A stretch of DNA of 64,000 nucleotides from Barthelona sp. PCE (lineage: Eukaryota): assembly GCA_040285745.1 (NCBI GenBank), contig JAUFOR010000003.1, forward strand, positions 434,001 to 498,000, read 5' to 3'. Position 1 is the first letter of the stretch; each line of letters starts with the position of its first letter. Below the pieces are notes generated by a model that ran no database searches, was not told the origin of the DNA, and saw only the letters and a list, made by a program, of their open reading frames with translations. The position numbers and the translations under genes are program-made. This document shows, in pieces, positions 46,301-64,000 of the stretch.

Positions 46301-49300
46301 AGAAGGGGATCGAGCCACTCATCGATGTTCTCAAAAAGGAACGGAATACCAAAGGACATTGCGTTCTCCAGATCACGCTGCCACTTGGGATTCTCAAAGG
46401 AAGAAATCTTGAGACCATCAGCTCCGAAATATGACTTCAGGAACTTGGACGCCTGCAAGTGGGGATCAATGAGACCGATACCAAGCTTAGGTGATTTAAG
46501 GGTGATGATTGCGTTCTGCACGTTGAATGTATCATTGGGTAGACCTTGGGCGACCCAGTTCGATACTTCAATGTCACTACTCTCAAATGCTTCGATTCTC
46601 CAATCCGAATTAGTATTCGTCTTGGTGCCAGGGCGTGAGAACGGAATGCCTCTACGGATGAGATCATCAACACATCCCTTCATGAGCTTGGCTCTGTATT
46701 GTAAATCAAAGGGAGCAAGGTACGACATGAAGAGAGAAATAAGCAGTGCGTTACCAGGAATCTCCGATGTCTGAACCAACAGTTGCTCCTTCTTCTCTGC
46801 CCAACGAACTTCTTCGTCGCCGAGACCACCAAGTAGTTCTTCAGCAGCCTCGAGCTGAGCTTCTTGATCAGCAACGATCTTTGCCAGCTCCTTCTCTTCC
46901 TTCTTCTTGATTGTGAACTCAGCATTGAGACGTTCAGTGGTCTCCTTTAGCTCGCGGATCTCGTTCTTGATGAGATCAAGATCAGACTGGAGCTTTGATA
47001 GACGCTTTTCAGCCTCACGGACTGCTCGCTGTTTAGGCTCGACGGTTCTGAATGTGAGGTAGAAATGTACGTTACCACTGACGAACTTCCACAGCTTGAG
47101 CGCGGCACGTGAGACCGTCTTGAGACGAGCCTCGTTAATGTCTGCCTTTTTCAAAATTTTCTGGATCTGCTTGATATTATCGTGTCTGAACCTTGTCTGA
47201 TCAATGTTTTCGAGCTCAAGCTTCAAGTTTGCGTTAGCAAGAATACTCTGAATGGATGACCATGATGTATCACGGTGACCCATTAGGAGAGCAACTGTTG
47301 CAAGAACTGCACGAACCTGCTCTGTGGGTGCCTTAAGAGCACGTGCTTCCATAATCTCCTGACGAGAAAGACCTGCAAGAGTATCCTTAGCAGCCTCAAG
47401 GGCAGGGAGGGCGGCGTTAAGAGCAGCCTCAGCCTCAGCCTTGTCGATAGAAATACGCTCATGCTCAATGTGTAACTCCTTTTCTTTTTCTTGGGCAATT
47501 TCCTGCTTCTCAGCAGTGATACCCTGCATTTCTTTAATCTGTTTAAGAAGTTCTTCATTTTCACCCTGTTTCTGCACAATTTGCTTATGCTTTTCAACAA
47601 GAGCTTCCGACATGATACCGACTTCATTACGAGCTGACGAGATCTTAGAAAGACCTTCATCAAGACGCTCAATTGAACGCTTATATTCGCTCTCAAGAGA
47701 TGCACACTTTGAAATGTAAAGATGCAAGAAATCGAGGAAATTGCTGGGTGAAACAAATACAGAACGCTTCTGACTCACAAAGATATCTTGAGCCTTGGCA
47801 CAGACTTCCTCATGCAAATGACAGATTTCGTCAGTGATATCGATCAAGTACTTCTGATCGATATCAATGGATTGCAACTGTGCAGATGCAACACTGAAAA
47901 GTGCCTCCTTTGACCAAGAGTCGTACCAATCAATGACTGTGTTCGACAAAAGACCTGGGAATGACTGACAGCGATGACGCAGCACCTCCTTATTGAAAGA
48001 GAAACACAGCACAATGTGTAAGTTATCACGACACTTGTTCACAAAGTAGTTCCAACAGTTCTCCTTGGTGTCGATCAAACCAAGGTTCTTCACCTCAGAA
48101 CGGACACCATCAATGATCTTCAGCTTTTCTTCCGGTGGGAAGAGTGCTGGAACCATACCAGTTGTCAAGAGGTTGTTAATAAACTCAAGGAATGATTCAT
48201 CAACAACATGTGCATCAGTAAAGAGGAAGACAATCTTCTTATTCTCAAGACCAAGACGCAAAAACATAGCTGCAAGATCTTCTCTGAACTGCAGTTCATC
48301 ATAATTCTTACTGAGTGTAATCTCAAAAAGTTCCATACGCGCAATATAAGCTGCGAAACGAGTTAGTGTCTTCTTTCCAGAACCACCAACACCCATCAGC
48401 AACGCGTTACCACGTGGCATCTGAATGATACGGAGCAGTGATGCGAGGTGACGGAGACACTCATCGAAAAGAATGATGGGCAGCTTGTGTGCCTTGTTCT
48501 TCATGTTATGTGTCTCCAAGTATTGTGCAGCAACGGTCTTAAGCTCGTCAAATGAGTCGACGGGCTCATACAAATCAGGCATCATACGCTCGCCCATCTC
48601 ATCGATGGACATAAAATCGCAGTAAAGAAGCTCCTTATTGCGAATAACGCTTTCAATATCAATGCGGTGCTGGTTGTCGCCCTTCTTATAGATGAACGAA
48701 TCAAAGTTACTGCTGACGTACTCCTTAATCTTTGTTTCAATATTCTTGCGTTCAGATTCCTCAATGAGCTTATCGTGGAAAATACGCATGGCTTCGTGCA
48801 TCCACAACTGTAAAAGACCTTCAGGCTTACCGAACTTTTCGGGTGTAGACAGTAAAAGACCTTCAAATACACGTGAAATATCACGGAGATTAAAAGTGTA
48901 GTGGAATTTAGCAGGGGTGGGACTGAGCGAAGTGACAACGTAATCATAAAGATCAAGTTGCGTCTGAACGATACCCTTCGTCAAAGTCTGGAATTCATCA
49001 GGGAATGCGTCCAAGTGATGAGAGAGGATGCTATCATAAATGTGACGAAGTGAGTCACCAGTGGAGGAGAGCACATTGATGAAACAGAAGTGTGAAACAA
49101 AACGCTCATCAACGTTGTTACGACCACCTTTAGGTGATGTCATGGCAGAAATGAAACGCAAATCTTTGAGTGTCATCCATGAGCGGGACTCAACGCGCTG
49201 GTACATACCTGAGTATTCGAGGATCTGTTTGAGTAGCGCAATGGGTTGCTGAGTACCGTAAATATCAATTCGGGGCATGTTGACGTCATCCAAGAATACA

Positions 49301-52300
49301 TTCAGAACCTTACCATAAGGAGGACCATAAATATTTGATGATCTTGAATCAATGTTCTCTTCTAGCGTACGTTGGATATCAAGAGATGTAGTACGTGCAG
49401 AGAAATTAAATTGTAACAACTGTGTCTTATCCGGATCGTTGAGGGCTGGATCCATCAGGAATTTCTGGATGGTGACGGTTTTTGCTGTACCTGAATCACC
49501 AATAACCAAGAAAGGACTGTTTGGTGACATTGTCTGAATGAGATATGAAAGACAAACCGTCTCCTTGTTGGGTACAAGGATCTCAGAGAATTTACCGCTC
49601 TTTGGAGGAACGTATTCACTGACCTTGTTGTTCCAATGTGTCCAGTAGCATTCGTTAACGTTAAGTGGATCGAAAACAAACACAAAATCAAACAGTGTAT
49701 CTGCATCACTGTGAGGGAGATCACCGACGCTAACACGACCTCCTGCGGCCTTGATAAGTGAACGACCGGAGAGAGCCTTGATATGCTGATCCAACTGACC
49801 GCGGTAGTCTGGCTCGAGGAGAGCACCAATAGACCAAACGAGACAGAAGAGGAAGATGGACTCGACAACGTCGCTTTCCAAGCTTACCTTCTCATCCAAG
49901 TTCTCGGTAGCAGCCAAAAACTGATCGAAGAAGGTATCAAACATAATTGTAAGCTGCTTGATGAGATTAACATCGGTTGAAGGGATGGCAGTCTTGGGGA
50001 CCTCGCTGTACACACCGTTCCAAACACCTGTAAACATCCACTCGATAAGCTTACGTACATAACGAACGAAGAGATCAAAGACCATTGGCCTGTAATCTTC
50101 AGGAAGATGTGAAAGCCATGTTTGGAAGAAGGGTTCGTAACGAAGATCCTTGGGATCAACCCACACCATACCACAACGTGAAACAGTAGCGGGAGATGCG
50201 TAGTTAAGGTTGGAAACTTCAAAGAGAAGTGAACAATATTGTTTGAGGTTGATAGACTCATTGTTAGGCAACGTTAAGAGTCTATTGTCGTCCATGACAG
50301 AGTTCATTGACTCAATCCAAATGGTATCGACATCACCATCAAATACAATATAACGACGCTCGTTCTTACCCTCAGGTAGAGGCTGGTTGATAACACGGAA
50401 AATGTTGGATAGAAGACCATCGGTCCAGTCACGTGTGGCAGGATCCAGAACACCATACAGCTCGTGTACTTCTTGAGCCTTGGGGTTGAGAACATAAAGT
50501 CTTGTGGGTAGTCCCATCGAAGTCTGGGCCTTTGAAAGCGTGTTGATAACGACAGATTTACCACCACATGTAGGTCCTACAACCATAGTCGCGTGACGGG
50601 TCATCATTGTCTCATATAGCTGGACGATCTTATCAACCTGTTTCTCAAGAACTTGATAGTTACTCTTGGTGAGTTGTTCTTCAACTGCAGCAACGAAATC
50701 AGGATAACGCTGCTGAGGAATACGAACGTTGGGGAAAAGATCATTAACGAGACCAAGGAAAAGAGGTACATCGTCATAGATGAACTTGGGAAGGTTAGCA
50801 TCACGAAGCGCTCTCATTAATAGGAGTTCTTCAGGCAGATTATCCGGGTTGTTACGTTTAAACTTACCAGCCATAACAAGAACTGACTTAAGAGCACGAA
50901 GACCGAAATCATAGTGCTTCTGCTTTGAAAGCTGCTCCTTTGAGAGTTTATACAAAACAACCATCTTCCTCGAAAGAAGTTTGGCTGTCTGGAAACCCTC
51001 AGAGTAAAGCATAATCTCACAGATAAGATCGAGATCAGGAACAACCATGACTACCGGACGGAACTGAGCCTTCAGGTTATCAGGCAGTTCTGTACGACCG
51101 GCGTAACCGGGGTTCATGGTAATAAAGATACCAACAGTGTTTCTGAGTTTAATCTCAACGTTCTCGAATTGGAAAGAATCAACACGATTACGAAGAGCAC
51201 GCTGGATAGTTCTGATCTGCGTTGATACGACGGAAAGAACTTCAGGCTTGATACGGTTGAACTCATCGAAACAACCAAATGCACCGACTGAACAAAGACC
51301 GGAGAAAGTTCGGCCAAGCGCAGTGGTATCAAGACCATCAGAAGCGTTGATGACACGGAAAGGACGCCAAAGACTCTTTGCAAGATCCTTGACAGTCTCT
51401 GTCTTACCAGTACCGGCAGGACCAGCGGGGGAACCACCAAGGCAAAGCTCAAGAGCCTGTGTGAGTGTCATGTAACAACGATCAGTAAGTGGTGTGATGA
51501 CCAAACGAGATGGGATGCCCATGTACTCATAGTCAAAGGGGAGAACACCATTACATTGACGCGCTTCAACAATCTTTGTGCTATTATTGAAATAGAATCT
51601 TAATTGACTCTCCCAAGCGAAATCGTTGACTTCAATGATGGAATCTCTAATGAAATTCTCGAGGATACCCTTGGAGTGAACCTTAAGGATAGTAAGAGTG
51701 TTGAGCTTCTTACGTAACTGTTTGTTCTTTGTCGTAGACATAGTGTCAACAACATAAGTAAGTTCAGCTGCGAGGGAGTTGTTGAGATCCTTCATAACAT
51801 TCTTGTTACCCTGCTTGAACTGTTCGAAACAATCCTCAATCAGGAAAGTGAAGTAAATCTCAGACACAGAGCAGATGACCTGACCAAGTGTCTTCTCGTA
51901 CCACTTAATCACCTTCTTCTGATCATCGTTTGTGGAAAGATAATCCCAAAGTGAGACAGCAGTCTGTCTCTTGAGAGATTGACGCATCATCTTCACGACG
52001 CTAGTGAACCAAATCTCAACAGAAGTGTTGTCTTGCAATAGAATAGGCTCTTCAAAGAGGAGCTCTTCCTTTTGAGAAGACATGAGACCCTGGATCTTCT
52101 TAACACCCTGTGGAACAATCAAATGATCAGCACCCTGACAAATCTTGATGACGTGGTGCTGAATATCACTAATCTCGCTTGTACCGAGCATGGAAAGAAG
52201 TTCATCATCTGAGATGAAATAGAAACGGGGGAAAAGCTGACGCTTGGAGTTCAGGTAATTAGTCAATGACTTCTGACACTCTTCAAGTGATTTAAGTAAC

Positions 52301-55300
52301 TTGGTGAGTACTTCAAGACGCTCAGGCTTAAGACAGTTCTTCAGAACATTAGGTTCCTTCTCAGCTTCGAGCATAACTTGCTTGAAAGTCTGATCAACAG
52401 TCTCAAAAACTTTGGTTTCCTTTGGCAATTGAGAACGGATATCCTCCGAATCAAGATAAATTGCCTCCAGATAAATCCATTTCATTTGAACCTTGAGCCA
52501 GATGTCAACCAATTGATCGATGCTACTGAGATAGCGTTCCCATTTCTGCACATCATTCAAGAAATTTGAAATATACTTGGAGCCCTGCAATGACTGGAGA
52601 ACACCAAGGTTATCTTCAAGAATCTCTTGGATTTGATCGATATCCTTAAGTACACTTCCCTTGATCTGATCGTTCTTTGTGTAAATACTGAATTTAAAAT
52701 CGAGGATACTCCAATGATCATTGATATCACGGAGTGAGATTTCAATTTGCAGTTCACGGTTAGCAAGAATGGAAATATCACTAATCTCCTTCTCGTACTT
52801 GAAAAGAGAGAGGGAGTAGATTGCCTGTAATGTGAGCTCATCTTCATCGAAAGTAGACTTGGTGAGGTCACTGAGCATCTTAAAGTGACGAGGACGCAGT
52901 GAAGGTGACTTGAGAATCTCAAGAATAGGTATGAGCTTCTGGTAATCCTTGAACATGGTTGAGAATAAACGGAAATTCTTGAAGTTGGTGAAATTCTTCT
53001 TCTTAGCTTCAACCTTAAAGACCTTAAAGTTACGATCGAGGAAATCACTGAAGACTTCAACACTGAGTTCCTTAAAGGTTAACGATTGGTAACCCTCTAG
53101 TTCGCGTTGGAACTTCTCGAAGAACTCAAAGAGATGATTGAGTAGATTCATATTTTTGTTGATATATGAAAGATCCTCGAATGATTTAAGAGGGAGACTG
53201 AAAAGTCTGATTGAATAAATCAAATCTTCTCTTGTTTCATTGAGAGTGATGAGATCAGACTTGAATGCCAAATAGACCTTATAGTTCTGAAAGATATCGT
53301 TGTGGATATCAGGACCTTTTGTCATGAAGAATTCACGTTCGCTCTTCAACTGAACAACGAAATCATCAATGCGACGCTCTGTCTCATTGGTGAATTTAGC
53401 CTTCAGCTCACTCAGTGAACGTTCGACAGTCTTACCGAGATCGAGCAATGATTCCCATGTAGCCTGAAGCGTTTGAACATGATTCAATTCTTCATCAGCA
53501 ATTCCAAAGTTATAATACTTCAAAAGATGGAAATATTCCTCAATCTCCTTAATTAATTCCTCGACAATGAGGTTCTCCTTAGACAAAGAGTCAAGGGTCT
53601 TGAGTAAACTCTTGAGACTAGCAATATTGTCAACAGGATTTTCGATCTTGGTCTTGTACATGGTGTGCTTACCGAGCACCTTGTTGAGTTGCTCCTGTGC
53701 GTGTTCGTGGATAATACCGCAGATGGTCATCTTAATATCTTTGCTCAACTGGGATATAACATCCTTAATAGCTGAGCAGTCGATGAGTAAGAACTGACAA
53801 CGAATGAAATCATGCATGGAAAGAACTTCTGCCTCTGCCTTCACATATGTGTTTAAGATGTGATAAAGAGCCTGGAAGTTAACTTCACGCTCAATTCTGT
53901 TCTTGAGTGAAGTTGAAATATCGGTCGAGTTGAACGACCAAACACGCTCATAACGATACCATTGACGCTCAAACTTCTTGAGTTTGAGAAGAACACCATC
54001 AAGACGAACGTTAAACATTTCAGTAAACTGCTTGACGATGGGGGTTTTCACAATATCAGTGTAGAAGGAGTACTTAAAGTAGCCTTCTTCTTCATTCTCA
54101 AATACCCTGACTGGAGAGCATGAATTTCTCATCCAACGAGGAATGCATCTGAAGCAATCAAAGAGAACCTGAAGAACACGTCCACTGTACTTGATGAAAT
54201 CACTCCAGTTGGGGGAGAAAATAACATCAGGAGGTTGGAACACTGTGGAGATCTTGAAGCTAGGCCTCTTTGCGAGGAAGATCTTATCTAAGTTCTTGAG
54301 TGAGACCTTGAGACACTTGACCAGGGCATCAAACACCTTCTTCTCACTATAGCTGTACAATTTGAGAAGTGCACTGTTTGATCCTGATGTGATACCAAAC
54401 AGGAGGTTTTCTATCTTGACGAGACACTCACTTATTTGGTTGTAATATGGGAGAATCTTGTTGAGGTTTTCAACTGATTCGAATTGTAATTGTTCGGCAA
54501 ACTCTTGAATATCAATGAGATTGCCAAAGTAATCACGTGTATAAGTAAAATTACTGTTCTCTGCTGTTGCATCAACGGATCTGCTGCTGAGCAATGCGAT
54601 TCCCTCAATATTTGTTAGTGAAACATCAATGTCAGTGAGGAAGCGCTTGAGAGAAGTAATAACAGACTGGAAGTTCTTAACGTCCTCCCTTAAATCCTTG
54701 AGTAATGAATATACCGAAAGTGAGTTCCAGTTTGTCTCTGACTGGTAAAAACGACTGAACTTCTTATCGAGAACTTTAAGACGATTGGCGACGAGAGTTA
54801 GTTCAAGCTCCGAGAGTGAATCAATGAGCGTGTCATAACCTGCAAGGAACTGTTCCATTTCATTCTTAAGACTGATGTACTTCGAATGCTGAAGACAACA
54901 ATTGGATACAGTCTCGTTGATGGGATAGGGTACCTTTGCGTCGAGCATCTTTCCTTCCTCAATGATAAGCTGCAATTCTTTGCTGAAAACAACTTCATAT
55001 TTGGACACAGAAAGTTCGTCTGTCACTTGATGGATGACGCGCTTAACAATAGGTTGTTTCAGTAAAGAGAGAGCCTTGAGAGCTGAAGAAGAGTTCCATT
55101 CTTCGAAACGACGAATTTCTTCGTCTCTAATAAGCTTAGCAACCTCAAAATAACGATGTTTGACTTCAACACCGACTGTCTCACTCTCCAAATTAGGGAA
55201 ATGCTTCTTGAAGACAAGGAAAGGTTTTTTCAGCTTCTGGAAAAGTGAACGTTCCCATTGCAAGAAGCCTGCCAATGGAGGGAAACGTTTTGGGATCGGA

Positions 55301-56574
55301 GGATTTTCTAAGTTACTGATAAATTCTTCTTCGATCTTGTTGGTCTTAATAATAAATTGTTTCAGGATAGTTTCAAACTTCTCATTAAGGTTTTGTTCGA
55401 ATTTCTCACTCAAATTCTCATTATTACGGAAATTCTTTAAGAACTTAAATATCTTCTCAGGTTGTTCGAAATCAATTTGATTAAATATCTCATTCAACAA
55501 TTTAAGAGAGATTTTCTCTAATTCCAATAATTGTGAATTAAAATTCTCAAAAAGATTAAAGAATATTTTAATTGAATCATCACGAATGATGATATTCTTA
55601 AAAGGATTAATGCTAGAATCTAGACTCTTAATGAGATCGATGAGATTCTTCTCGTAGTTCTCATCTGAACTAATCTCCAACTTCTTCAATTCAATTAAAA
55701 GTTCCTTATGAGTGAGATAAACATTCAAAATATTTAGACTTTTCTCAAAAATCTTCTCGAGGTTCTCTAACACATTTTTGGATGTTGGGATGAGTTTACG
55801 GATCTCATTAAAGTTTGTTATAACTCGTTCCCCATCTGTATTAACACTAATAATATTACCAGTATTCAAAAAATTCTGAAAATAGGTGAGAATCTCCAAA
55901 CTAATTTTGAAGAACTCCTTTTCAAACTTATAGTTCTTTTTAAGGATCTTAATAAAGAATCTACTGATTAAATTAATTAAATCTTCATAAATCTTGATGA
56001 AAATCTTGTTCTTCTTAAACAAGCTGAAAATTAACTTAAGATTGGTGAATAGGTTGGTTAATGATTCTTCTATGACGTATAAGTCTTCATTTTCAAGAAT
56101 CTTAAACGATCTTTCCAACAAAAAGAGGAATTTTGAAATTTCTGTGAAATTGTTCTTCAAATTGTTTAAATATAAGAGGAATGAATCGTTCTCCTTGAAA
56201 ATGGGGGACTTTTGTGCTAAATCATAGAAATATGTAAACCTTAAACTACGTTGACGATGATAATCAAGAAAACTCAACAAATCTCCAACGAACTTCTTTT
56301 CTAACTCCTTCTCGACCTCGTATCGAAGCCAAGTTCCAAACTCCTCCTTATCTACGACTGACATATCAAAACCAAGACTAGATTGTGCTTGTTCGGTTTG
56401 ACGCACGAAACGGCGAATATCAACATCGGGACAGAGATGTAAGAATACTGTAAGAAGCTGGGAAAGACTACGGAGCGAAAACGAACCTTCTAAGCCCGAA
56501 ATACTAACTGAGGTAGCTCCTGAGATTGTACCTGTACCTGTTATGCCTGCTGAGGCTGGGTTAAGACCATTCAT
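43345..56574 (-). CDS. DNAH10: Axonemal inner-arm dynein heavy chain (I1/f alpha type), intronless 4409 aa
   Basis: P-loops GPAGTGKT, GPTCGGKS, GDSGTAKT and GVGGSGKK; CFDEFNR; C-terminal RRNAMGEGLVFEA...WILQ characteristic of DNAH10. Confidence 0.92.
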   Translation of the reverse strand: MNGLNPASAGITGTGTISGATSVSISGLEGSFSLRSLSQLLTVFLHLCPDVDIRRFVRQTEQAQSSLGFDMSVVDKEEFGTWLRYEVEKELEKKFVGDLLSFLDYHRQRSLRFTYFYDLAQKSPIFKENDSFLLYLNNLKNNFTEISKFLFLLERSFKILENEDLYVIEESLTNLFTNLKLIFSLFKKNKIFIKIYEDLINLISRFFIKILKKNYKFEKEFFKISLEILTYFQNFLNTGNIISVNTDGERVITNFNEIRKLIPTSKNVLENLEKIFEKSLNILNVYLTHKELLIELKKLEISSDENYEKNLIDLIKSLDSSINPFKNIIIRDDSIKIFFNLFENFNSQLLELEKISLKLLNEIFNQIDFEQPEKIFKFLKNFRNNENLSEKFEQNLNEKFETILKQFIIKTNKIEEEFISNLENPPIPKRFPPLAGFLQWERSLFQKLKKPFLVFKKHFPNLESETVGVEVKHRYFEVAKLIRDEEIRRFEEWNSSSALKALSLLKQPIVKRVIHQVTDELSVSKYEVVFSKELQLIIEEGKMLDAKVPYPINETVSNCCLQHSKYISLKNEMEQFLAGYDTLIDSLSELELTLVANRLKVLDKKFSRFYQSETNWNSLSVYSLLKDLREDVKNFQSVITSLKRFLTDIDVSLTNIEGIALLSSRSVDATAENSNFTYTRDYFGNLIDIQEFAEQLQFESVENLNKILPYYNQISECLVKIENLLFGITSGSNSALLKLYSYSEKKVFDALVKCLKVSLKNLDKIFLAKRPSFKISTVFQPPDVIFSPNWSDFIKYSGRVLQVLFDCFRCIPRWMRNSCSPVRVFENEEEGYFKYSFYTDIVKTPIVKQFTEMFNVRLDGVLLKLKKFERQWYRYERVWSFNSTDISTSLKNRIEREVNFQALYHILNTYVKAEAEVLSMHDFIRCQFLLIDCSAIKDVISQLSKDIKMTICGIIHEHAQEQLNKVLGKHTMYKTKIENPVDNIASLKSLLKTLDSLSKENLIVEELIKEIEEYFHLLKYYNFGIADEELNHVQTLQATWESLLDLGKTVERSLSELKAKFTNETERRIDDFVVQLKSEREFFMTKGPDIHNDIFQNYKVYLAFKSDLITLNETREDLIYSIRLFSLPLKSFEDLSYINKNMNLLNHLFEFFEKFQRELEGYQSLTFKELSVEVFSDFLDRNFKVFKVEAKKKNFTNFKNFRLFSTMFKDYQKLIPILEILKSPSLRPRHFKMLSDLTKSTFDEDELTLQAIYSLSLFKYEKEISDISILANRELQIEISLRDINDHWSILDFKFSIYTKNDQIKGSVLKDIDQIQEILEDNLGVLQSLQGSKYISNFLNDVQKWERYLSSIDQLVDIWLKVQMKWIYLEAIYLDSEDIRSQLPKETKVFETVDQTFKQVMLEAEKEPNVLKNCLKPERLEVLTKLLKSLEECQKSLTNYLNSKRQLFPRFYFISDDELLSMLGTSEISDIQHHVIKICQGADHLIVPQGVKKIQGLMSSQKEELLFEEPILLQDNTSVEIWFTSVVKMMRQSLKRQTAVSLWDYLSTNDDQKKVIKWYEKTLGQVICSVSEIYFTFLIEDCFEQFKQGNKNVMKDLNNSLAAELTYVVDTMSTTKNKQLRKKLNTLTILKVHSKGILENFIRDSIIEVNDFAWESQLRFYFNNSTKIVEARQCNGVLPFDYEYMGIPSRLVITPLTDRCYMTLTQALELCLGGSPAGPAGTGKTETVKDLAKSLWRPFRVINASDGLDTTALGRTFSGLCSVGAFGCFDEFNRIKPEVLSVVSTQIRTIQRALRNRVDSFQFENVEIKLRNTVGIFITMNPGYAGRTELPDNLKAQFRPVVMVVPDLDLICEIMLYSEGFQTAKLLSRKMVVLYKLSKEQLSKQKHYDFGLRALKSVLVMAGKFKRNNPDNLPEELLLMRALRDANLPKFIYDDVPLFLGLVNDLFPNVRIPQQRYPDFVAAVEEQLTKSNYQVLEKQVDKIVQLYETMMTRHATMVVGPTCGGKSVVINTLSKAQTSMGLPTRLYVLNPKAQEVHELYGVLDPATRDWTDGLLSNIFRVINQPLPEGKNERRYIVFDGDVDTIWIESMNSVMDDNRLLTLPNNESINLKQYCSLLFEVSNLNYASPATVSRCGMVWVDPKDLRYEPFFQTWLSHLPEDYRPMVFDLFVRYVRKLIEWMFTGVWNGVYSEVPKTAIPSTDVNLIKQLTIMFDTFFDQFLAATENLDEKVSLESDVVESIFLFCLVWSIGALLEPDYRGQLDQHIKALSGRSLIKAAGGRVSVGDLPHSDADTLFDFVFVFDPLNVNECYWTHWNNKVSEYVPPKSGKFSEILVPNKETVCLSYLIQTMSPNSPFLVIGDSGTAKTVTIQKFLMDPALNDPDKTQLLQFNFSARTTSLDIQRTLEENIDSRSSNIYGPPYGKVLNVFLDDVNMPRIDIYGTQQPIALLKQILEYSGMYQRVESRSWMTLKDLRFISAMTSPKGGRNNVDERFVSHFCFINVLSSTGDSLRHIYDSILSHHLDAFPDEFQTLTKGIVQTQLDLYDYVVTSLSPTPAKFHYTFNLRDISRVFEGLLLSTPEKFGKPEGLLQLWMHEAMRIFHDKLIEESERKNIETKIKEYVSSNFDSFIYKKGDNQHRIDIESVIRNKELLYCDFMSIDEMGERMMPDLYEPVDSFDELKTVAAQYLETHNMKNKAHKLPIILFDECLRHLASLLRIIQMPRGNALLMGVGGSGKKTLTRFAAYIARMELFEITLSKNYDELQFREDLAAMFLRLGLENKKIVFLFTDAHVVDESFLEFINNLLTTGMVPALFPPEEKLKIIDGVRSEVKNLGLIDTKENCWNYFVNKCRDNLHIVLCFSFNKEVLRHRCQSFPGLLSNTVIDWYDSWSKEALFSVASAQLQSIDIDQKYLIDITDEICHLHEEVCAKAQDIFVSQKRSVFVSPSNFLDFLHLYISKCASLESEYKRSIERLDEGLSKISSARNEVGIMSEALVEKHKQIVQKQGENEELLKQIKEMQGITAEKQEIAQEKEKELHIEHERISIDKAEAEAALNAALPALEAAKDTLAGLSRQEIMEARALKAPTEQVRAVLATVALLMGHRDTSWSSIQSILANANLKLELENIDQTRFRHDNIKQIQKILKKADINEARLKTVSRAALKLWKFVSGNVHFYLTFRTVEPKQRAVREAEKRLSKLQSDLDLIKNEIRELKETTERLNAEFTIKKKEEKELAKIVADQEAQLEAAEELLGGLGDEEVRWAEKKEQLLVQTSEIPGNALLISLFMSYLAPFDLQYRAKLMKGCVDDLIRRGIPFSRPGTKTNTNSDWRIEAFESSDIEVSNWVAQGLPNDTFNVQNAIITLKSPKLGIGLIDPHLQASKFLKSYFGADGLKISSFENPKWQRDLENAMSFGIPFLFENIDEWLDPLLMSVFDSQSKNSNDIVFNDKVITLDVNFRIFFSCKIANPNFSSDIQTKLQLVNFNLSQDGLNEQLLNVTIQHEKRFLEEERLKLIQTISKNKQSLHDFEIMILRLLNNASGNLLKNYELIETLRGIKKNVREVTESLKTADKTRESIEKARMVYEPVSRRGTILFFALFNLNLISNMYEYSLASFLQVFKQSFTDAPAVGLSVLERLEAIQETVTYLIFEYACLGLFTTHKLLFAFSMCVQIFKEEIDPNLLSFFLKGNLSLSEIDVPNDIVELGYTTQQWKDITLLTTLSPVFIDLQVIVRSEEFLEWSKLQEPERIPAPGTYSELEGFEKLCLLRCVRHDRITQAVSLYIMSKMGERFVNPPVLTYQRVLNASDSISPVVFILSPGADPASEVEKLAFKAGLIQSGRYKSLSLGQGQDVIAEQMVRTGAQRGHWILLQNCHLLRSWLKRFEKLLEDVLVEGGDDKKGGVHKEFRLFLTTSPIKDFPLGILQRSVKVVTEPPNGLMPNILNNYARVSDETYDLSDHGRYHDLIYTVAFFHSVIQERKKYGKIGWNVSYEFTESDFMVSLTLLATYLNLAQQDNDGEIPWSTLRYLIGEAMYGGRVSDDWDRRILNCYLKEYMGEFLFDDFQTFHFYKDDDFAYVLPEAEKQKDYIGFVEKLPLFDKPALLGLHPNAEIQYNKDCTRSLFLNMIELQPREVSKGKGDSLDYAMRIITDILKALPDPFDIPLIRKENIDDVPTPTQIVLLQELERFNVLCTLIDKSLNELLRAMRGEVGMSIELDSILRALEAGQIPELWKKQAPPTRKALGGWIQHFHRRHKQYIEWIEEEPIVMWLSGLHVPESYLTALVQTTCRRNEWALDHTTLVSRILDVRDPSTIHQRPADGCYITGLYLEGAGWDMDTHQLRPQEHKELITEIPIVHIVPIEAHRARLEITNSFHTPVYFTSDRRNAMGEGLVFEAYLPTQEHESFWILQSVALVLNTS

Positions 56575-57604: not shown

Positions 57605-59338
57605 ATGTTTACTTTCAACAAAAGCAAGCTTCCTCCATCTTCAACTTCTAGGGCAAGTTCCAGTGGGTCTGCCTCTCCAGCAAGTACACCTAGAGGTCAT
57701 TCAACACGTAAACGTTCTCGCAGCAAAACTAGAGGGCTAACCTTCTCTCCAAGTAATCCTTCGCTTCTGGAATCTATTCCAAAGACGAAAATCAAAACGC
57801 TGTGGGACATTGTTGATCGATTTCCTTCACATAAACTTTCTGAAAATTTCGATTTTCCAGTAACTGACTATATCATTCACTTAAATATCACATATCAGGA
57901 AAGTGAGATGCTTTCTAGTGACCCCATTATGTCATTCTTTTATCCAAGTCGTGATACGTCATTTACCATCCCTGAATCCGCTTTTCCCAACAAACTATTC
58001 GTATACACATTTGAATATACACGATTAAGTCAGTATGGTTATAACCTAGACGTTGGGTTGGAGGATGAGGCTATTTTCGTGGAGCAGTTTTTTGAAAATG
58101 TGAAAAAAATTGTTGAGTTCAGACATTCTGCTGTCTCTTCAGTTCTGGACGTTATTATCGACTGCCAGGGTGAGAAGATTATAGTTAAGGTTCTTGGTCT
58201 AAGTCTACGATTCGGTTCAGAACTTACTGTATTAAGCGATTTTAACAATTGGGAAGTGGATTATGGTTGTCATGTACTAAAAGAATTGCAACATGAAGTT
58301 AGTACAGCTAATATTTCTATTGAATTTCCATCAAACTTTATATTCACAAGAGGTATCAAAACTTTAGTAGCTTTCCGCACTACTTTTGAAACAGATTCTA
58401 TTTTTACATATCAAGAACAGCAACAAACACATGTAATTCTCCAGTTTCAGTTGTGGTTTTTCTGTGAACTCAACAATAGTATGCCGGATATTATTAGGAT
58501 TCCATGTGAGAAATTCAACATACTAAGTTTTTTTAAATCTAAAGTTGGTTTCATGAACAGAACAAAACGAATATTAAAACCTGATACCAGTTTCTTCAAT
58601 AATATATCAAGCGTTATCGGTGCTACAAGTCAGAGCATGCCTTCTTTGATTGTTGAACGACAACAAGCTGCACGTAACCCTCACACGCAAAAAGTCTTTA
58701 GGTACTTTGATTCATATGCCAAGTACTGTGGGGCTCAGTTTTCTGTTGTTTCATCAAATGAGTGGTATTGTGAAATTCTCTTTGATACTACTAATATGTT
58801 CCCTTTGCGAATTGTGCAAATTGGCTTTATAATTCACTTAATCCACTCAACTGTTCAAGGTATCACCTTAGAAGAGAACCAGTACATCCCCCCAGTGCGC
58901 GGTGACGAAGTGGGTAACCATGGTGTGTTTATAATTGAAGAAAATAACGATAGGAGGCATAGATTGATGGGTAATCTCAACGGTTTAAGTGATTACACTG
59001 CAATAGTTGTACGTATTCTGACATATCTTCGAGTGGCGACTGTTGACGGTTCGAAATTATATTCATTAGATTATGATGAGGAGAATCAACAATTTAGACT
59101 TCGCATACATTCATCAAAACAACTCATTGTGAAGAAAAAGCGTTGTTACAGAGCATCTCCGTGTTTTATTGGAACTTTTGACGTGTCAAAGAATAATATG
59201 AAATTATTTGCGTGTTTGTATTACACATTATTAGAACATGATTTCTATATTAGTTTTTGTAACCATCATTGTTCAAATACAAATGTTCTATACATCAAAG
59301 ATCTAACAACGTTTCTTTATTCTTCTGATTCTGATTGA
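57605..59338 (+). CDS. Hypothetical protein with Ser/Arg-rich N-terminus
   Basis: Long clean ORF (ATG at 57539 or 57605). No family recognised. Confidence 0.7.
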   Translation: MFTFNKSKLPPSSTSRASSSGSASPASTPRGHSTRKRSRSKTRGLTFSPSNPSLLESIPKTKIKTLWDIVDRFPSHKLSENFDFPVTDYIIHLNITYQESEMLSSDPIMSFFYPSRDTSFTIPESAFPNKLFVYTFEYTRLSQYGYNLDVGLEDEAIFVEQFFENVKKIVEFRHSAVSSVLDVIIDCQGEKIIVKVLGLSLRFGSELTVLSDFNNWEVDYGCHVLKELQHEVSTANISIEFPSNFIFTRGIKTLVAFRTTFETDSIFTYQEQQQTHVILQFQLWFFCELNNSMPDIIRIPCEKFNILSFFKSKVGFMNRTKRILKPDTSFFNNISSVIGATSQSMPSLIVERQQAARNPHTQKVFRYFDSYAKYCGAQFSVVSSNEWYCEILFDTTNMFPLRIVQIGFIIHLIHSTVQGITLEENQYIPPVRGDEVGNHGVFIIEENNDRRHRLMGNLNGLSDYTAIVVRILTYLRVATVDGSKLYSLDYDEENQQFRLRIHSSKQLIVKKKRCYRASPCFIGTFDVSKNNMKLFACLYYTLLEHDFYISFCNHHCSNTNVLYIKDLTTFLYSSDSD

Positions 59339-60084
59339 TTAGCGTTTAATACTTCAAATATCAAAGTTAAATACTTATGTCTCAAATTCCAATCTTCTGA
59401 GTTAATTTTTTCTAATACTTCACCAATAATCTCTTCATCAAGAGATGTCAATACCCTTCTTAACTCTTTTTCAGTTCTGATAGTTTTATCCTTATTGCTA
59501 AACATGAAAAATCCTTCTAATATAATTACAGCACGATCGTACACTGCTTCTTTGTTATCTGCATTCCTAACAAGTTCTTCACCAACAATACGAGGAAGTT
59601 CATCGCTTAGTACATCAAAAATATGATATGTGCATCCTTTAGCTTTGGGCTTTTCGAACAAGAAATCCTGATATGTCTTCACAAAGACCATGGGATCAAC
59701 ACTGGTACTGAAAATAAAACGTAGCGTAGCACTAAATACCCGACGCATCAAACTAAGGAATTTATCAAGTGTGAATTTATCATATAAGTGCCATTCCTTG
59801 GTGATTAGCTCCCAGAAAGCAGACAGATAGACAGGAAGGACAAAAGGAGAAAGTTTGTCAACAACTTCCAATACAATATCTGCAGTTTTTAACTGATTAT
59901 CGGTTTTATCAACAAGACAGAAGCCTACAAAAAAGCCCTTCCAGAGACGAAGCATCTGTAAACGATCTGCATCGTCATATGTCTCAAAAAATTTTGTGAG
60001 TTGCAAAAACGCACTCTCTCGTTGCTCTACTTCATTGGATGCGAGCATACGCGCCATATCCACATAAGAAACTGTGTCAGACAT
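59317..60084 (-). CDS. RRP1: Ribosomal RNA processing protein Rrp1/Nop52
   Basis: LASNE...R, LRLWKGFF...DK and EWH.YDKF.LDKFLSLMRR are Nop52-family motifs. Confidence 0.88.
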   Translation of the reverse strand: MSDTVSYVDMARMLASNEVEQRESAFLQLTKFFETYDDADRLQMLRLWKGFFVGFCLVDKTDNQLKTADIVLEVVDKLSPFVLPVYLSAFWELITKEWHLYDKFTLDKFLSLMRRVFSATLRFIFSTSVDPMVFVKTYQDFLFEKPKAKGCTYHIFDVLSDELPRIVGEELVRNADNKEAVYDRAVIILEGFFMFSNKDKTIRTEKELRRVLTSLDEEIIGEVLEKINSEDWNLRHKYLTLIFEVLNANQSESEE

Positions 60085-60176
60085 TCTTGAAAAGGTTAGA
60101 AAAAGTACTTTGCGAAGACTTTGATTCCACTTCTTTAACTTTTTTTGTGTAAGTTCTTGGGGCATACTATTACACA

Positions 60177-60635
60177 ATGAACCAATCTGGGACTAAAAAG
60201 CAGAGGACGGAGGAGAAATATGATGAAAGCTGTGTTTTTAATGAGTTCTCAAAATTAATCGGTGATGCGGGAAGTGAAAAGCCTCGTTCAAGAGGAAAAT
60301 CCAAAAAATCCAAGGGATCGTCCACAATTGTACAAAAACCACTTTCAAATGATGCAGGTTACATTCCTGTCGAATGCAAGAAGCCTAAAATTAAAATTTT
60401 GACTTTTCCTGAGGGTCCAAGAGTCACAGAATATCAGCTAACAGTGCTTGCCAATAAGCTTATTGATGGGGAGCATAAGCAGCATCGTGTTAAAGATTTT
60501 ATTCCAAACAATGATGTTCTAAGTCTACGTTTACAAAATCCTGTAAGCATTCCAGGCCGAAATAGAGAGACTTTGCAAAGAAAAGAGGCTCCAAAGCTGA
60601 TTAGAAGGAATGATACAAAAACAGAATTAACTTGA
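60177..60635 (+). CDS. Basic hypothetical protein (152 aa)
   Basis: ATG-initiated ORF filling the gap between RRP1 and the CRC gene. Confidence 0.55.
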   Translation: MNQSGTKKQRTEEKYDESCVFNEFSKLIGDAGSEKPRSRGKSKKSKGSSTIVQKPLSNDAGYIPVECKKPKIKILTFPEGPRVTEYQLTVLANKLIDGEHKQHRVKDFIPNNDVLSLRLQNPVSIPGRNRETLQRKEAPKLIRRNDTKTELT

Positions 60636-61487
60636 TTTTTTTATTCTTGTTTCAATCATTTGCAGTGCTAAAAGGCCGTTTTTCATAATTTCCTCTTTGT
60701 TTTCATTTGTTTCTATGTTTGTTACATGTAATAGATTGGCCAAATCTTGAATAATCTCATTTCGAAACCCAAAATTAATTCGGTCATTAACAGTAAAATT
60801 ATCTTCTTCATTTGGAATATTCATCTGAGTCTTCTTTGTTGACTGATTGTTGATTGTTAATAGTGACTTTTGAGGTGAAAAATGTGAACCTTCACTCAAG
60901 ATCTGTCGATTTTTAGCGCTTATTGGATCTAACACCACTTCTGGTTCTTCCTCCTTTGCATTCTGTACATTTGCCTCACTTTCAACCGATTCTTCTGTTT
61001 CTACTTCCACAACAGAATTACTACGCTTGTTACGTTTCTTTTTTTGCTTTGTTTTTTGGTTTTTAGTCTTCTTCTTTCGAGCTTTTCTCTCTCTCACCCG
61101 CTCCAACTCTTTTGATCCCTTGAAATTTTGACAATTTTGACATGAACAACCTTTTTCACAGAAAAGACCCGACTGAAAGCAACAACAATAATTCTTGAGA
61201 CATCTTGAAGACTTACAGTTACAGTGCGGCCTGTGATCTCCTGTTTTTGGATCAAATGCGTGTGGTTTACGAGACAAAATTGATCGAATTTGTCGTTCAC
61301 GGTCTGCTTCGTGTTTAGGTACATTTCGACAATCGCGACATGTGCATCTTTCGTGACAATATTGGTTATGTGCAAAGCAAACACAATAAAGCTTTAGGCA
61401 ATGACATTTTGTGCAGGAACAAACATAATTAGAATCTGTTGATGCTGGCCCAAGTGTCCCCTGACCTTCTGCCTTCTCACCGGCCAT
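60627..61487 (-). CDS. Tesmin/TSO1/LIN54-like CRC (CXC) DNA-binding protein
   Basis: Two CXC domains (CSCTKCHCLKLYCVCF...C.C.DC.N and CNCKSSRCLKNYCCCF...C.C.NC.N) joined by an R.P.AF.PK linker, plus an NLS-like Lys tract. Confidence 0.9.
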   Translation of the reverse strand: MAGEKAEGQGTLGPASTDSNYVCSCTKCHCLKLYCVCFAHNQYCHERCTCRDCRNVPKHEADRERQIRSILSRKPHAFDPKTGDHRPHCNCKSSRCLKNYCCCFQSGLFCEKGCSCQNCQNFKGSKELERVRERKARKKKTKNQKTKQKKKRNKRSNSVVEVETEESVESEANVQNAKEEEPEVVLDPISAKNRQILSEGSHFSPQKSLLTINNQSTKKTQMNIPNEEDNFTVNDRINFGFRNEIIQDLANLLHVTNIETNENKEEIMKNGLLALQMIETRIKKSS

Positions 61488-61565
61488 ATTAAGCAGCGCA
61501 GAAGGGATGAAATGGGTTAGACAAAAAAAACAACTGAAAATAAGATTTACATGTATAGACAAAGA

Positions 61566-63998
61566 CTATGACTCGTTGATCTTCTTCAAAAGAATCTGAC
61601 ATTCACGCAATGAACTGACAGTTTCCTTAAGCTTATCACGGTGTTGCTTAACTTGAGGATCTTCGGCCAAAATCTCATCAATGAGTCTCTGATCGTAGAT
61701 ACGAGCCATGAGATCACGCTCAATAGCTCTCTTGACAGGGTTAACCATCTTAAGCATCACTGCCTTGGGTAATTGCAAAGAAATGTGGTTGCGAACGTTC
61801 TCGAGATAGGATGTGACAACACGACGAACAAGATCAATATCATTCTCTTCATCCTGTTCGTGACCTCTTGTAGCTCTCTTAAGCGCTTCAATCCAGCTAG
61901 CGTAATCCTCGGGTGTCTCACCACGTACTTCAAACAAACAACGATCGTGGATAATAGCCTTTCCACTGTTGTGAGAAAGACGCATATAAAATTCACCAAA
62001 TGTTTCTTCAGCGTTCTTGATTAACTCTTCACGTTCCTGTTCGTACATGACTTGCCTTCTCTCGTCCCAATCTTCGACATCAGGAATAGGAAGACCTTCA
62101 AGAGCAACCTCAGCTGAAGAACGAAGATCAAGGTCTTCTAAAGGAATCATACCCAAAGGAGCAGTGCTCTCAGGGTTCTGGAAATAAAACAAGGTACGTG
62201 CCTTGAGGACAAACCATCGACGTTCCCATTTGTTTGATTTGCGACCGAAACGTGATGACCACTTGCCTCCAGACTTCTTCAAGAGAAAACCTTCAAAGAG
62301 AATGGCTTCAGGGTTTGCCTGATTAACCTTGGATTGTTTGTTGGTTTTAAGCTTACCCAGGGTGATGTAGGAAAGCTCCATCTCGACGAGCTCACGGGCG
62401 AAATCCTTGGCAGAAGGAAGTAAATCAGAAATGATCTCTAGAGATGTAGATTTCATACGTTGCTTAAGGGCGGGGAAAAGAGCAAGTTCTTTGATACGCT
62501 CAGAAGTGTCGTCGACAAGAGCAACAAGCTGTTGATTAACTTCATCAACACACTCCAAAACTGGATTGATTAATTGAGAAATACCAACCTTAATTGGAGC
62601 CTCGAATGTTTCCTGAGGAATATTGAAGTTCGATTGTGTACCTGTTGTGTTCTGGATATACTTACGAATTTGGTCATCATCTAAGCGCATTGATATATCA
62701 GCTAATTTAATAGATTCTTCAAGTTTCTGGGTAAGTAAGTGCTTAATCTTAGCACCAACAAGGATCTGGGCCTCGAGCTCGTGAGGTCCATCCTGCACGC
62801 GCTCAAGATCATCTGATGAAGCACCATCAACAATGTTACAATACAGACGTGAGAATGACTGAAGAATACCAAAAGCAAGACGCTTACGACCGTCATCACT
62901 ATCATCGTCACCAATTGCTGAGAGCTCGCGTTCGCTCTCGTTAAGCTTTGTGCTGATCTGACGACGCAAATCAGGAAGACAAGCCTTAATATGGTTAATC
63001 AATGCGGTGTTAAGAACCTTAGCAAGGTACCCAGTACCTGCACGGTGTGCGACAGCGTGGTAAGCTTCATGGTGTTGGAAGTACTGTTCTTCAGCAAAAG
63101 CTGCCGAGTTCAAATCCTGACCCTGGTCAGTTTGCTTCTTGGAACGGTTAACAACGGGGATCATCTTCATACCCTCGTACATTTGTCCGTTAAGCACACG
63201 CATAGCATCGGTACCCTCATCCATGAGATCAAGTTTTGTGAGGACACTGATCGTACGTAGATGCTGGGGATCGTACTTCTCAGCCATAGCAAGAGCTTCA
63301 GAGTTTGCGATATCGGTGTTTGCTGGGGAAACAGCAAGAATAATTGTGTTATCATTGGCAGCAAAACGTTCAACCATTGCATGAATTAACTCAACAATAT
63401 TCTTCTGCTGACCATCAACAGCAACCTTTGTAAGACCAGGAAGATCGACGAGCGTAAGGTTGACTGCGCCTGCAACTGAAAGCTTCAAGTTGATAGGCAC
63501 AGCGGAGATCTGATTTGGACCACAAACACGATCTGTCTCACGAACAATTTCGTTACGAATTTCTTCAAGGTCATAGAACTTACGTTCCGCCATGTGTGCG
63601 AACTGGCCCACTGGGGTTGTGGCATCAGCATCGTGCATGAGCTGAAGAACGAGAGGTCTACGTGTACACATGTTACTGTTACGTGGTAAGACATCACCAA
63701 CAGACAACAATCTCTCAAGAACTGAACTCTTACCTGCACTCTGGGCACCGACAACAGCAATCTGAGGAAGAGAAATTACCGAAGTTAAACCAGAAACGGC
63801 AAGAATATCTTGCATCTGGTTAACAATATCAATAAGATATTCCATGTTGCCTGTGGGCTTTAAAAGACCAGAAATACCTGATTCATCCTCCTCAAAAGTT
63901 TTTGTTCCTGATTGCATCTGAGGTTTTGGCTTTGGTTGAGCCATCGTTCCAGGAGTTGGGCGGGATGCCATAGTACCTGGGACGGGGCGTGCTGCCAT
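61566..63998 (-). CDS. Dynamin-family GTPase with PH domain; N-terminus may extend beyond the window
   Basis: LPQIAVVGAQSAGKSSVLE, CTRRPL, DLPG and TKLD, then middle domain, PH (EGFLLKK...WERRWFVL) and GED (LPKAVMLKMVN). Confidence 0.92.
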   Translation of the reverse strand: MAARPVPGTMASRPTPGTMAQPKPKPQMQSGTKTFEEDESGISGLLKPTGNMEYLIDIVNQMQDILAVSGLTSVISLPQIAVVGAQSAGKSSVLERLLSVGDVLPRNSNMCTRRPLVLQLMHDADATTPVGQFAHMAERKFYDLEEIRNEIVRETDRVCGPNQISAVPINLKLSVAGAVNLTLVDLPGLTKVAVDGQQKNIVELIHAMVERFAANDNTIILAVSPANTDIANSEALAMAEKYDPQHLRTISVLTKLDLMDEGTDAMRVLNGQMYEGMKMIPVVNRSKKQTDQGQDLNSAAFAEEQYFQHHEAYHAVAHRAGTGYLAKVLNTALINHIKACLPDLRRQISTKLNESERELSAIGDDDSDDGRKRLAFGILQSFSRLYCNIVDGASSDDLERVQDGPHELEAQILVGAKIKHLLTQKLEESIKLADISMRLDDDQIRKYIQNTTGTQSNFNIPQETFEAPIKVGISQLINPVLECVDEVNQQLVALVDDTSERIKELALFPALKQRMKSTSLEIISDLLPSAKDFARELVEMELSYITLGKLKTNKQSKVNQANPEAILFEGFLLKKSGGKWSSRFGRKSNKWERRWFVLKARTLFYFQNPESTAPLGMIPLEDLDLRSSAEVALEGLPIPDVEDWDERRQVMYEQEREELIKNAEETFGEFYMRLSHNSGKAIIHDRCLFEVRGETPEDYASWIEALKRATRGHEQDEENDIDLVRRVVTSYLENVRNHISLQLPKAVMLKMVNPVKRAIERDLMARIYDQRLIDEILAEDPQVKQHRDKLKETVSSLRECQILLKKINES

Positions 63999-64000
63999 CG

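What the first reader, a model, noticed from the sequence alone, without database searches (positions are those of the whole stretch)
61870..62310. Dynamin with a PH domain in an apparently metamonad-like protist
Seen: between the stalk and GED lies a clear PH domain (EGFLLKKSGG...KWERRWFVLKARTLFYF...PLGMIPLEDL...WIEALKRA) with an internal acidic helical insertion of about 45 aa. Known: PH-containing dynamins are mainly described from animals/holozoans and plant DRP2, and most protist DRPs have an unstructured insert here. Inference: this PH looks more like the basic beta1-beta2 phosphoinositide-binding type (cytohesin/DRP2-like) than the animal dynamin PH. That implies either independent PH capture or an older origin of PH-dynamins.
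Basis: partly seen in the sequence, partly recalled or inferred. Interest (0 to 1): 0.7.

Follow-up and report, generated by a model that had tools for sequence, protein, structure and literature searches.

The report
Animal-style PH dynamin in metamonad protists
This protist makes a membrane-cutting dynamin with a lipid-binding PH domain, a design usually credited only to animals and plants; free-living relatives from three main metamonad branches share it, so it is old in this group and may cut endocytic vesicles rather than divide reduced mitochondria as was proposed.

Summary
The gene (minus strand, 860 aa, starting 148 nt past the window end) is a class A dynamin: GTPase, stalk, PH (Pfam E 1.8e-12), GED, and no proline-rich tail. 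The PH has a long basic beta1-beta2 loop and an acidic helical insert. Orthologues with the same PH occur in Barthelona, Skoliomonas, Anaeramoeba and Trimastix and form one clade without PH columns (100/100), so the form dates to the metamonad ancestor. [quoted passage not shown] The Paratrimastix orthologue does not co-fractionate with MRO markers, and Skoliomonas litria, which may lack an MRO, keeps the gene. Endocytic or endosomal scission is the likelier role (about 0.6). Origin is open. Metamonad, animal and a stramenopile-like PH-dynamin clade group at 95/97, but AU tests reject no alternative and the PH tree does not join animal and metamonad domains. Other protist PH-dynamins exist, so the 'animals and plants only' premise is too narrow. 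New variant of a known kind.

The parts
61566..64000 (-). Dynamin gene, one uninterrupted frame, 860 aa; start codon lies 148 nt past the window end (G000:C3:498148)
63849..64000 (-). In-window part of the roughly 100-aa low-complexity N-terminal extension (13% Pro, no PxxP); pLDDT under 50 over residues 24-99
63231..63761 (-). Dynamin GTPase domain (Dynamin_N); G1, switch I Thr, DLPG and TKLD motifs present
63672..63680 (-). Switch I with Asn157 and Asn159 where the four other BaSk copies and animal dynamin have Gly
62361..63203 (-). Stalk (Dynamin_M)
61869..62297 (-). PH domain
62226..62279 (-). Long basic beta1-beta2 loop (18 aa, 7 K/R, no D/E, with Trp and Phe), at the place of dynamin VL1; long in BaSk and Trimastix copies, short in Anaeramoeba
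61989..62117 (-). Acidic helical insert between beta5 and beta6, at the place of dynamin VL4; present in all 9 metamonad PH rows (30-89 aa) and both DRP2 rows (24, 43 aa)
61938..61970 (-). Long beta6-beta7 loop that aligns with animal dynamin VL3 nearly without gaps; also long in DRP2
61581..61850 (-). GED; the protein ends 4 residues later, with no proline-rich tail

Best explanation
A class A dynamin paralogue that already carried a PH domain in the last common ancestor of Metamonada (about 0.9). It most likely works like classical dynamin (about 0.6 overall). The PH at the stalk foot binds anionic lipid through K624, R644 and the long basic, aromatic beta1-beta2 loop. Stalks polymerise around a vesicle neck, GTPase domains pair across rungs, and hydrolysis cuts plasma-membrane or endosomal vesicles. 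With no proline-rich tail, recruitment would rest on lipid and N-terminal modules, not SH3 partners. The acidic helix replaces the membrane-touching VL4 and is more likely a regulatory or partner-binding element. Shown: architecture, fold, orthology, catalytic motifs. Inferred: lipid binding, polymerisation, site of action, role of the insert.
For: Domain order as in dynamin-1, 7e-105 over residues 51-808. PH over the Pfam cut-off in the window protein and in Barthelona PAP020, two Skoliomonas, Anaeramoeba flamelloides, one A. ignava copy, Trimastix and one unnamed metagenome protein; a second A. ignava copy scores 24, just under 25.1. The 8 metamonad rows form one clade at 100/100 with PH columns removed; their PH domains (9 rows) form one clade at SH-aLRT 95 among 121 rows. 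G000 has two further class A dynamins without PH that branch elsewhere, and clathrin heavy chain. The Paratrimastix orthologue PaPyr3413 has 16-18% of its signal in MRO fractions 2-3, against 59-66% for Cpn60 and 53-60% for Miro; r = -0.38 and -0.44 with these and +0.42 with clathrin heavy chain (5 proteins compared). Skoliomonas litria keeps the gene (P0004) though no MRO protein could be confidently identified in it (PMC11316075).
Against: No localisation or binding data exist for the window's protein. The middle basic site of the headgroup motif is Glu or Gln in 8 of 9 metamonad rows, and the A. flamelloides row lacks the beta2 Arg. Fractionation shows a largely light-fraction protein, which a transiently recruited organelle-fission dynamin would also give; the clathrin correlation is modest. 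I did not see the PaPyr3413 sequence, so its PH is inferred from orthology and its 834-aa length. A published orthogroup holding PAPYR_3413 has no oxymonad member and includes a Trichomonas DRP, which fits an MRO role. The window copy has a fast GTPase branch (1.28 against 0.28 for its closest relative) and two switch I Gly-to-Asn changes, so its catalysis may be altered.
Confidence: 0.6

Rival explanations
1. Function rival: the protein divides the mitochondrion-related organelle, as proposed for the Trimastix and Paratrimastix orthologues; the PH would bind the MRO outer membrane or a receptor there.
For: PMC6759080 notes a second trimastigid class A DRP absent from amitochondriate Monocercomonoides and speculates on MRO fission. 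PMC10703272 names Trimastix_PCT|268 (the transcript id of P0286) and PAPYR_3413 as these proteins. Their orthogroup has no oxymonad member and includes one Trichomonas DRP; a Trichomonas DRP contributes to hydrogenosome fission (cited).
Against: PaPyr3413 does not follow MRO markers and is not named in that paper's main text, which holds the 31-protein MRO table. The gene is kept in Skoliomonas litria. That orthogroup has no fornicate member although fornicates have MROs. Its best database hits were vertebrate dynamin-1-like and dynamin-2.
Confidence: 0.2
2. Origin rival A: independent capture. A metamonad stem DRP gained its own PH, as did holozoan dynamin, plant DRP2 and one or more other protist lineages, because the stalk foot faces the membrane.
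For: The PH tree does not join animal and metamonad domains, and the 5 stramenopile-like PHs fall in two places. The PH N-half is much closer to cytohesin than to animal dynamin. The stalk+GED tree separates Holozoa from the metamonad clade. One further PH-dynamin (P0250) sits among PH-less DRPs. AU tests did not reject Holozoa+Vps1 (p 0.386), metamonad PH + own PH-less paralogues (p 0.304) or a joint lineage-by-lineage tree (p 0.055).
Against: Three PH-bearing clades group without PH columns (95/97; 285 of 300 bootstrap trees) and in the GTPase-only tree (84). In the first two constrained trees the PH clades stay adjacent. The joint tree is 23.9 log units worse, though its search had not stopped. 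A long beta6-beta7 loop is shared by metamonad, animal and DRP2 PH.
Confidence: 0.5
3. Origin rival B: single old origin. A PH-bearing vesicle dynamin existed at or near the last eukaryotic common ancestor, survived in Holozoa, Metamonada, some stramenopiles and perhaps green-plant DRP2, and lost its PH or was lost elsewhere.
For: Core tree 95/97 for metamonad + holozoan + stramenopile-like PH-dynamins; SH-aLRT 87 in the quick tree of the same rows; 84 from the GTPase alone. The long beta6-beta7 loop is in all 18 metamonad, animal and DRP2 rows, while 13 of the 14 background rows printed (of 97) have 7-8 gaps there. Metamonad and DRP2 PH share the beta5-beta6 insert site and are weak sisters (73).
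Against: Bootstrap had not converged. With 12 more rows the grouping had only 68-72. All three stems are long. The set lacks identified plant DRP1/DRP3, intact animal Drp1, Giardia, Trichomonas and ciliate DRPs and was picked by similarity to the query. Stramenopile-like PHs lack the long loop, while cytohesin also has an insertion there. DRP2 cores could not be placed (branch over 3.6). It needs many losses.
Confidence: 0.35
4. Artefact or contamination: a chimeric gene model or a foreign (animal-like) contig.
For: None found.
Against: One uninterrupted frame on a 1.59-Mb contig; orthologues with the same PH in independent assemblies, branching as the species do for BaSk.
Confidence: 0.01

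Closest known systems
Classical holozoan dynamin (DNM1-3)
   Same: GTPase-stalk-PH-GED order; catalytic motifs; long VL3-type loop; best PDB match, 7e-105; weak sister in the core tree (72/29).
   Different: No proline-rich tail; about 100-aa N-terminal extension; basic 18-aa beta1-beta2 loop; helical acidic insert in place of VL4; PH N-half of the canonical type.
Plant and green-algal DRP2
   Same: PH between stalk and GED; similar beta1-beta2 pattern; insert after beta5; long beta6-beta7 loop; nearest PH in the PH tree (73).
   Different: DRP2 core is extremely divergent and has a C-terminal tail; the metamonad core is a typical class A dynamin with no tail.
Trimastigid second DRP (Trimastix_PCT|268, PAPYR_3413)
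   Same: Orthologue: same clade at 100/100 and same PH type.
   Different: Published as a candidate MRO-division protein with no mention of PH in the passages seen; the Trimastix model also carries an N-terminal FERM domain.
Cytohesin (Grp1/ARNO) PH domain
   Same: Best sequence (E 2.6e-9) and structure (Z 14.6) match of the isolated domain; beta1 Lys and beta2 Arg kept.
   Different: Middle basic residue is Glu; match limited to beta1-beta5; many PH domains lie within 2 Z units, dynamin PH at 12.4-12.5.
Dnm1/Drp1/Vps1-type DRPs without PH, including the two paralogues in G000
   Same: Same GTPase, stalk and GED.
   Different: No PH hit; separate branch.

Membership tests
Class A dynamin superfamily | Dynamin_N, Dynamin_M and GED in order | tested here: met
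Class A dynamin superfamily | G1-G4 catalytic motifs | tested here: met
   two switch I glycines are Asn in this copy
Class A dynamin superfamily | Assembly-stimulated GTPase and membrane constriction | not testable with these tools
   needs purified protein
Classical dynamin (Holozoa) | PH domain between stalk and GED | tested here: met
Classical dynamin (Holozoa) | C-terminal proline-rich domain with PxxP motifs | tested here: not met
   protein ends after GED; no PxxP in the N-terminal extension against 11-13 in three animal tails
Classical dynamin (Holozoa) | Nesting within the holozoan dynamin clade | tested here: not met
   Holozoan rows form their own clade, 100/100
Classical dynamin (Holozoa) | Shared PH-bearing ancestor (deep orthology) | tested here: inconclusive
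Plant DRP2 | PH of DRP2 type | tested here: inconclusive
   sister at SH-aLRT 73 with only 2 partial DRP2 rows
Plant DRP2 | Divergent DRP2 core and C-terminal tail | tested here: not met
High-affinity phosphoinositide PH domains (cytohesin type) | K-Xn-(K/R)-X-R motif (definition recalled) | tested here: not met
   K624 and R644 present, E642 at the middle site
High-affinity phosphoinositide PH domains (cytohesin type) | Measured headgroup binding | not testable with these tools
   needs liposome or calorimetry assays
MRO-division DRP (published hypothesis) | Co-fractionation with the MRO | tested here: not met
   Paratrimastix orthologue, published data re-read; transient recruitment is not excluded

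The most novel reading that the evidence does not exclude
PH-bearing dynamin is not a holozoan invention. It is an ancient vesicle-scission paralogue from at or near the last eukaryotic common ancestor, kept by free-living metamonads, animals, some stramenopiles and possibly plant DRP2. The metamonad form, with a canonical lipid pocket and no proline-rich tail, would show the state before SH3-based recruitment evolved, and the supposed MRO-division dynamin of trimastigids would be this endocytic protein.
Probability: 0.3. Interest if true: 0.82.

Novelty: new variant of a known kind. Interest (0 to 1): 0.62.

Why it matters
Papers from 2005, 2016 and 2025 treat the dynamin PH domain as confined to Holozoa and plant DRP2 and as a late step in the evolution of clathrin-mediated endocytosis. 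A PH-dynamin in the metamonad ancestor is either a further independent capture at the same site or a sign that the design is much older. It also puts a published idea to the test: the trimastigid orthologue was taken as the MRO-division dynamin whose loss went with loss of mitochondria in oxymonads. Paratrimastix has spatial proteomics data, so localisation can settle this.

Tried and rejected
Metagenome contig scan with the stalk-PH-GED alignment: 43 loci of 130 pattern matches, all weak matches of PH type (E 6e-8 or worse), no orthologue. RNA runs: none was listed. Earlier scan notes: nothing shown. The 48-aa C-terminal half of the PH against PDB: 6 weak hits, no dynamin, too short to inform. 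N-terminal 40 aa: no Pfam family, no usable Atlas hit, no second match in G000. Atlas search of stalk end-PH-GED: chordate dynamin 0.95, a chlorophyte-rich PH-DRP cluster 0.89; leads only. A 151-row FastTree was set aside because PH columns were not removed. From the 57-row set, 12 rows were dropped for the careful tree: three doubled-domain or fused models, one long branch, two DRP2, two partial metamonad rows and four redundant rows. Cytohesin as PH donor was rejected as unshown. An N-terminal proline-rich domain was rejected (0-1 PxxP in 7 metamonad extensions). Purkanti and Thattai 2015 was not held and the PMC6759080 supplement was unreadable; both may bear on novelty. No quantitative test of whether the long beta6-beta7 loop is specific to dynamin PH domains was completed, so that character rests on the printed alignment rows.

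Full report
What is in the sequence. The minus-strand frame ending at 61566 has no stop up to the window end and continues 148 nt into the neighbouring DNA to an ATG, giving 860 aa in one uninterrupted frame. Pfam finds Dynamin_N, Dynamin_M, PH (E 1.8e-12; 48.1 bits against a cut-off of 25.1; window 61869-62297) and GED in that order. The best solved relative is dynamin-1 (7e-105). An AlphaFold2 model of the domain (mean pLDDT 87) matches PH domains: cytohesin-3 Z 14.6, dynamin PH Z 12.4-12.5, with 590 of 998 chains at Z 8 or more. The protein ends four residues after the GED, so there is no proline-rich tail. It has instead about 100 low-complexity N-terminal residues without PxxP. G000 holds two more class A dynamins without PH and one more distant Dynamin_N protein, and a clathrin heavy chain.

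Anatomy of the PH. Loop names follow PMC10089193 (passages). The beta1-beta2 loop (VL1 site) is 18 aa with 7 K/R, no acidic residue, and a Trp and a Phe. The beta5-beta6 segment (VL4 site) is 43 aa with 14 D/E and 4 K/R, against 10 aa in animal dynamin, and is modelled as a helix. The beta6-beta7 loop aligns with animal VL3 nearly without gaps. Of the headgroup motif K-Xn-(K/R)-X-R (definition recalled; PMC4735990 passages mention the motif without spelling it), K624 and R644 are present and the middle site is E642. This suggests anionic-lipid binding of modest specificity (inference).

Who else has it. Homologue searches returned PH-bearing orthologues from Barthelona sp. PAP020, Eukaryota sp. 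TZLM1-RC and GEM-RC1, Anaeramoeba flamelloides, A. ignava and Trimastix PCT, plus a truncated model from TZLM3-RCL. PMC11603281 (passages) identifies TZLM1-RC as Skoliomonas litria and the other two as Skoliomonas isolates; PMC11316075 (passages) places barthelonids and skoliomonads as sister to Fornicata and Anaeramoeba as distant kin of parabasalids. A profile of stalk end-PH-GED over 1.84 billion representatives gave 3600 hits at E 0.001. Of the 150 listed, five matched along the whole profile at 264-438 bits and one fragment at 159; five are named metamonad or window proteins and one is an unnamed metagenome protein 69% identical to the Trimastix copy. Clustering at 50% can hide members, so absence from fornicates, parabasalids and oxymonads is not shown by this. 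The same searches found other non-animal, non-plant PH-dynamins: Cantina marsupialis and unnamed P0189, P0281, P0282 and P0250 over the PH cut-off, P0287 under it. I call the Cantina clade stramenopile-like from that one name (its classification is recalled).

Trees. With PH and insert columns removed (569 columns), the careful tree of 45 rows gives metamonad PH-dynamins 100/100, holozoan dynamins 100/100 and the stramenopile-like clade 100/98. The three group at 95/97, metamonad plus holozoan at 72/29; the bootstrap had not converged. The triple split is in 285 of 300 bootstrap trees read (of 1000). With all 57 rows, quick support for these joins was 68-72. The GTPase alone keeps the triple split at 84; stalk+GED joins metamonad and stramenopile-like rows at 85 and puts Holozoa elsewhere. 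AU tests did not reject Holozoa+Vps1 (p 0.386) or metamonad PH plus the PH-less G000 paralogues (p 0.304), but the PH clades stay adjacent in both trees. A joint lineage-by-lineage constraint cost 23.9 log units, p-AU 0.055, from a search that had not stopped and so may overstate the cost. In a PH tree (24 dynamin rows, 97 background rows kept of 131; 112 columns) metamonad PHs form a clade (95) with DRP2 as weak sister (73); animal PHs lie apart on a long stem and stramenopile-like PHs in two places. The long beta6-beta7 loop is in all 18 metamonad, animal and DRP2 rows; 13 of the 14 background rows printed, from five proteins, have 7-8 gaps there. Cytohesin also has an insertion at this site. 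Conclusion: metamonad orthology is firm; deeper origin is unresolved, about 0.5 for independent capture and 0.35 for a single old origin.

How it most likely works. From established dynamin mechanism (recalled, and PMC10089193 passages), stalks polymerise, the domain at the stalk foot contacts the membrane, and GTPase pairing drives constriction. The catalytic motifs are intact, though this copy has two switch I Gly-to-Asn changes and a GTPase branch of 1.28 against 0.28 for its closest relative, while stalk+GED branches are equal (0.36 and 0.37). I infer lipid-directed scission at the surface or endosomes, recruited without SH3 partners. The published rival is MRO division. PMC6759080 (passages; figure and supplement not seen) speculated that a second trimastigid DRP divides the MRO. 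PMC10703272 and its preprint (passages) name it as Trimastix_PCT|268 and PAPYR_3413; the first id is that of P0286. Its supplements (rows; part 1 of 24 of the tree file as text) give vertebrate dynamins as best hits, list the pair between vertebrate dynamins and Trichomonas DRPs (topology cannot be read from the text), and show an orthogroup with Trichomonas and Histomonas members but no oxymonad or fornicate member. In PMC9746703 (passages and supplement rows) MROs are mainly in fractions 2-3. PaPyr3413 has 16-18% of its signal there and 43-45% in fractions 8-10; Cpn60 has 59-66% and Miro 53-60% in fractions 2-3 (five proteins compared, its classification row was not in the stored part). Skoliomonas litria may lack an MRO yet keeps the gene. 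These points favour the endocytic reading (0.6) over MRO division (0.2) without excluding transient recruitment.

What is known. PMC1277907 (passages) calls classical dynamins exclusive to Metazoa except Arabidopsis DRP2. PMC4824007 (passages and section 15) finds DNM only in holozoans and PH-less DRPs elsewhere. [quoted passage not shown] PMC10280142 (passages) has no occurrence of 'pleckstrin' or 'metamonad'. The Giardia ARF preprint and PMC7058353 (passages) add nothing on a PH-dynamin. Seven searches on the distribution listed no paper describing a metamonad dynamin PH; none of the 20 papers listed (of 37) contained 'PH domain'. Subscription papers are not covered, Purkanti and Thattai 2015 was not held, and public database entries already carry the Pfam PH hit.

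Verdict. Real, conserved across three main metamonad branches and, within my searches, undescribed. It works like a classical dynamin by architecture but is not a member: no proline-rich tail, and it lies outside the holozoan clade. New variant of a known kind. Interest 0.62, because it overturns a repeated distribution claim and makes two questions testable (MRO division, age of PH-dynamin), tempered by other protist PH-dynamins and an unresolved origin.

Noticed in passing
L005:4059-4148 (just past the window end; protein residues 1-30): All five BaSk copies begin with a P-x-W-K-x-x-L-x-x-[KR]-R motif, modelled as a helix. It recalls the actin-bundling repeats of espin (recalled, untested); Pfam and Atlas gave no hit.
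   Followed up: partly
P0286 (Trimastix), residues 1-310: An N-terminal FERM domain precedes the dynamin (FERM_M E 4.2e-12). The Paratrimastix orthologue is only 834 aa, so this is a lineage-specific fusion or a chimeric transcript.
   Followed up: partly
window 63231-63761: The GTPase domain of this copy evolves about 4.5 times faster than that of its closest relative while stalk+GED does not; switch I has two Gly-to-Asn changes.
   Followed up: partly
P0028, P0287, P0189, P0281, P0282, P0250: Further PH-bearing dynamins outside animals and plants: a clade with Cantina marsupialis (100/98) and one unnamed protein that branches among PH-less DRPs.
   Followed up: partly
L006:2300-4417 and L007:2588-4576: Two PH-less class A dynamins of G000 are long-branched sisters (99/99); candidates for organelle division or Vps1-like roles.
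   Followed up: partly
window 60627-61565 (-): Tesmin/TSO1-like CXC protein (two TCR matches, E 4.7e-18); its frame abuts the dynamin stop codon.
   Followed up: no
window 59317-60192 (-) and 43345-56574 (-): Nop52-family protein (E 1.3e-29) and a 4409-aa uninterrupted frame that reads as a dynein heavy chain (by eye).
   Followed up: no
L006:3-1142: A 380-aa open frame near the C2 dynamin with residues suggestive of a tyrosine recombinase (by eye); possible mobile element.
   Followed up: no
L006:4551-6299: A bacterial-type FAD-dependent oxidoreductase with a C-terminal rhodanese-like region next to the C2 dynamin (by eye); possible lateral transfer.
   Followed up: no
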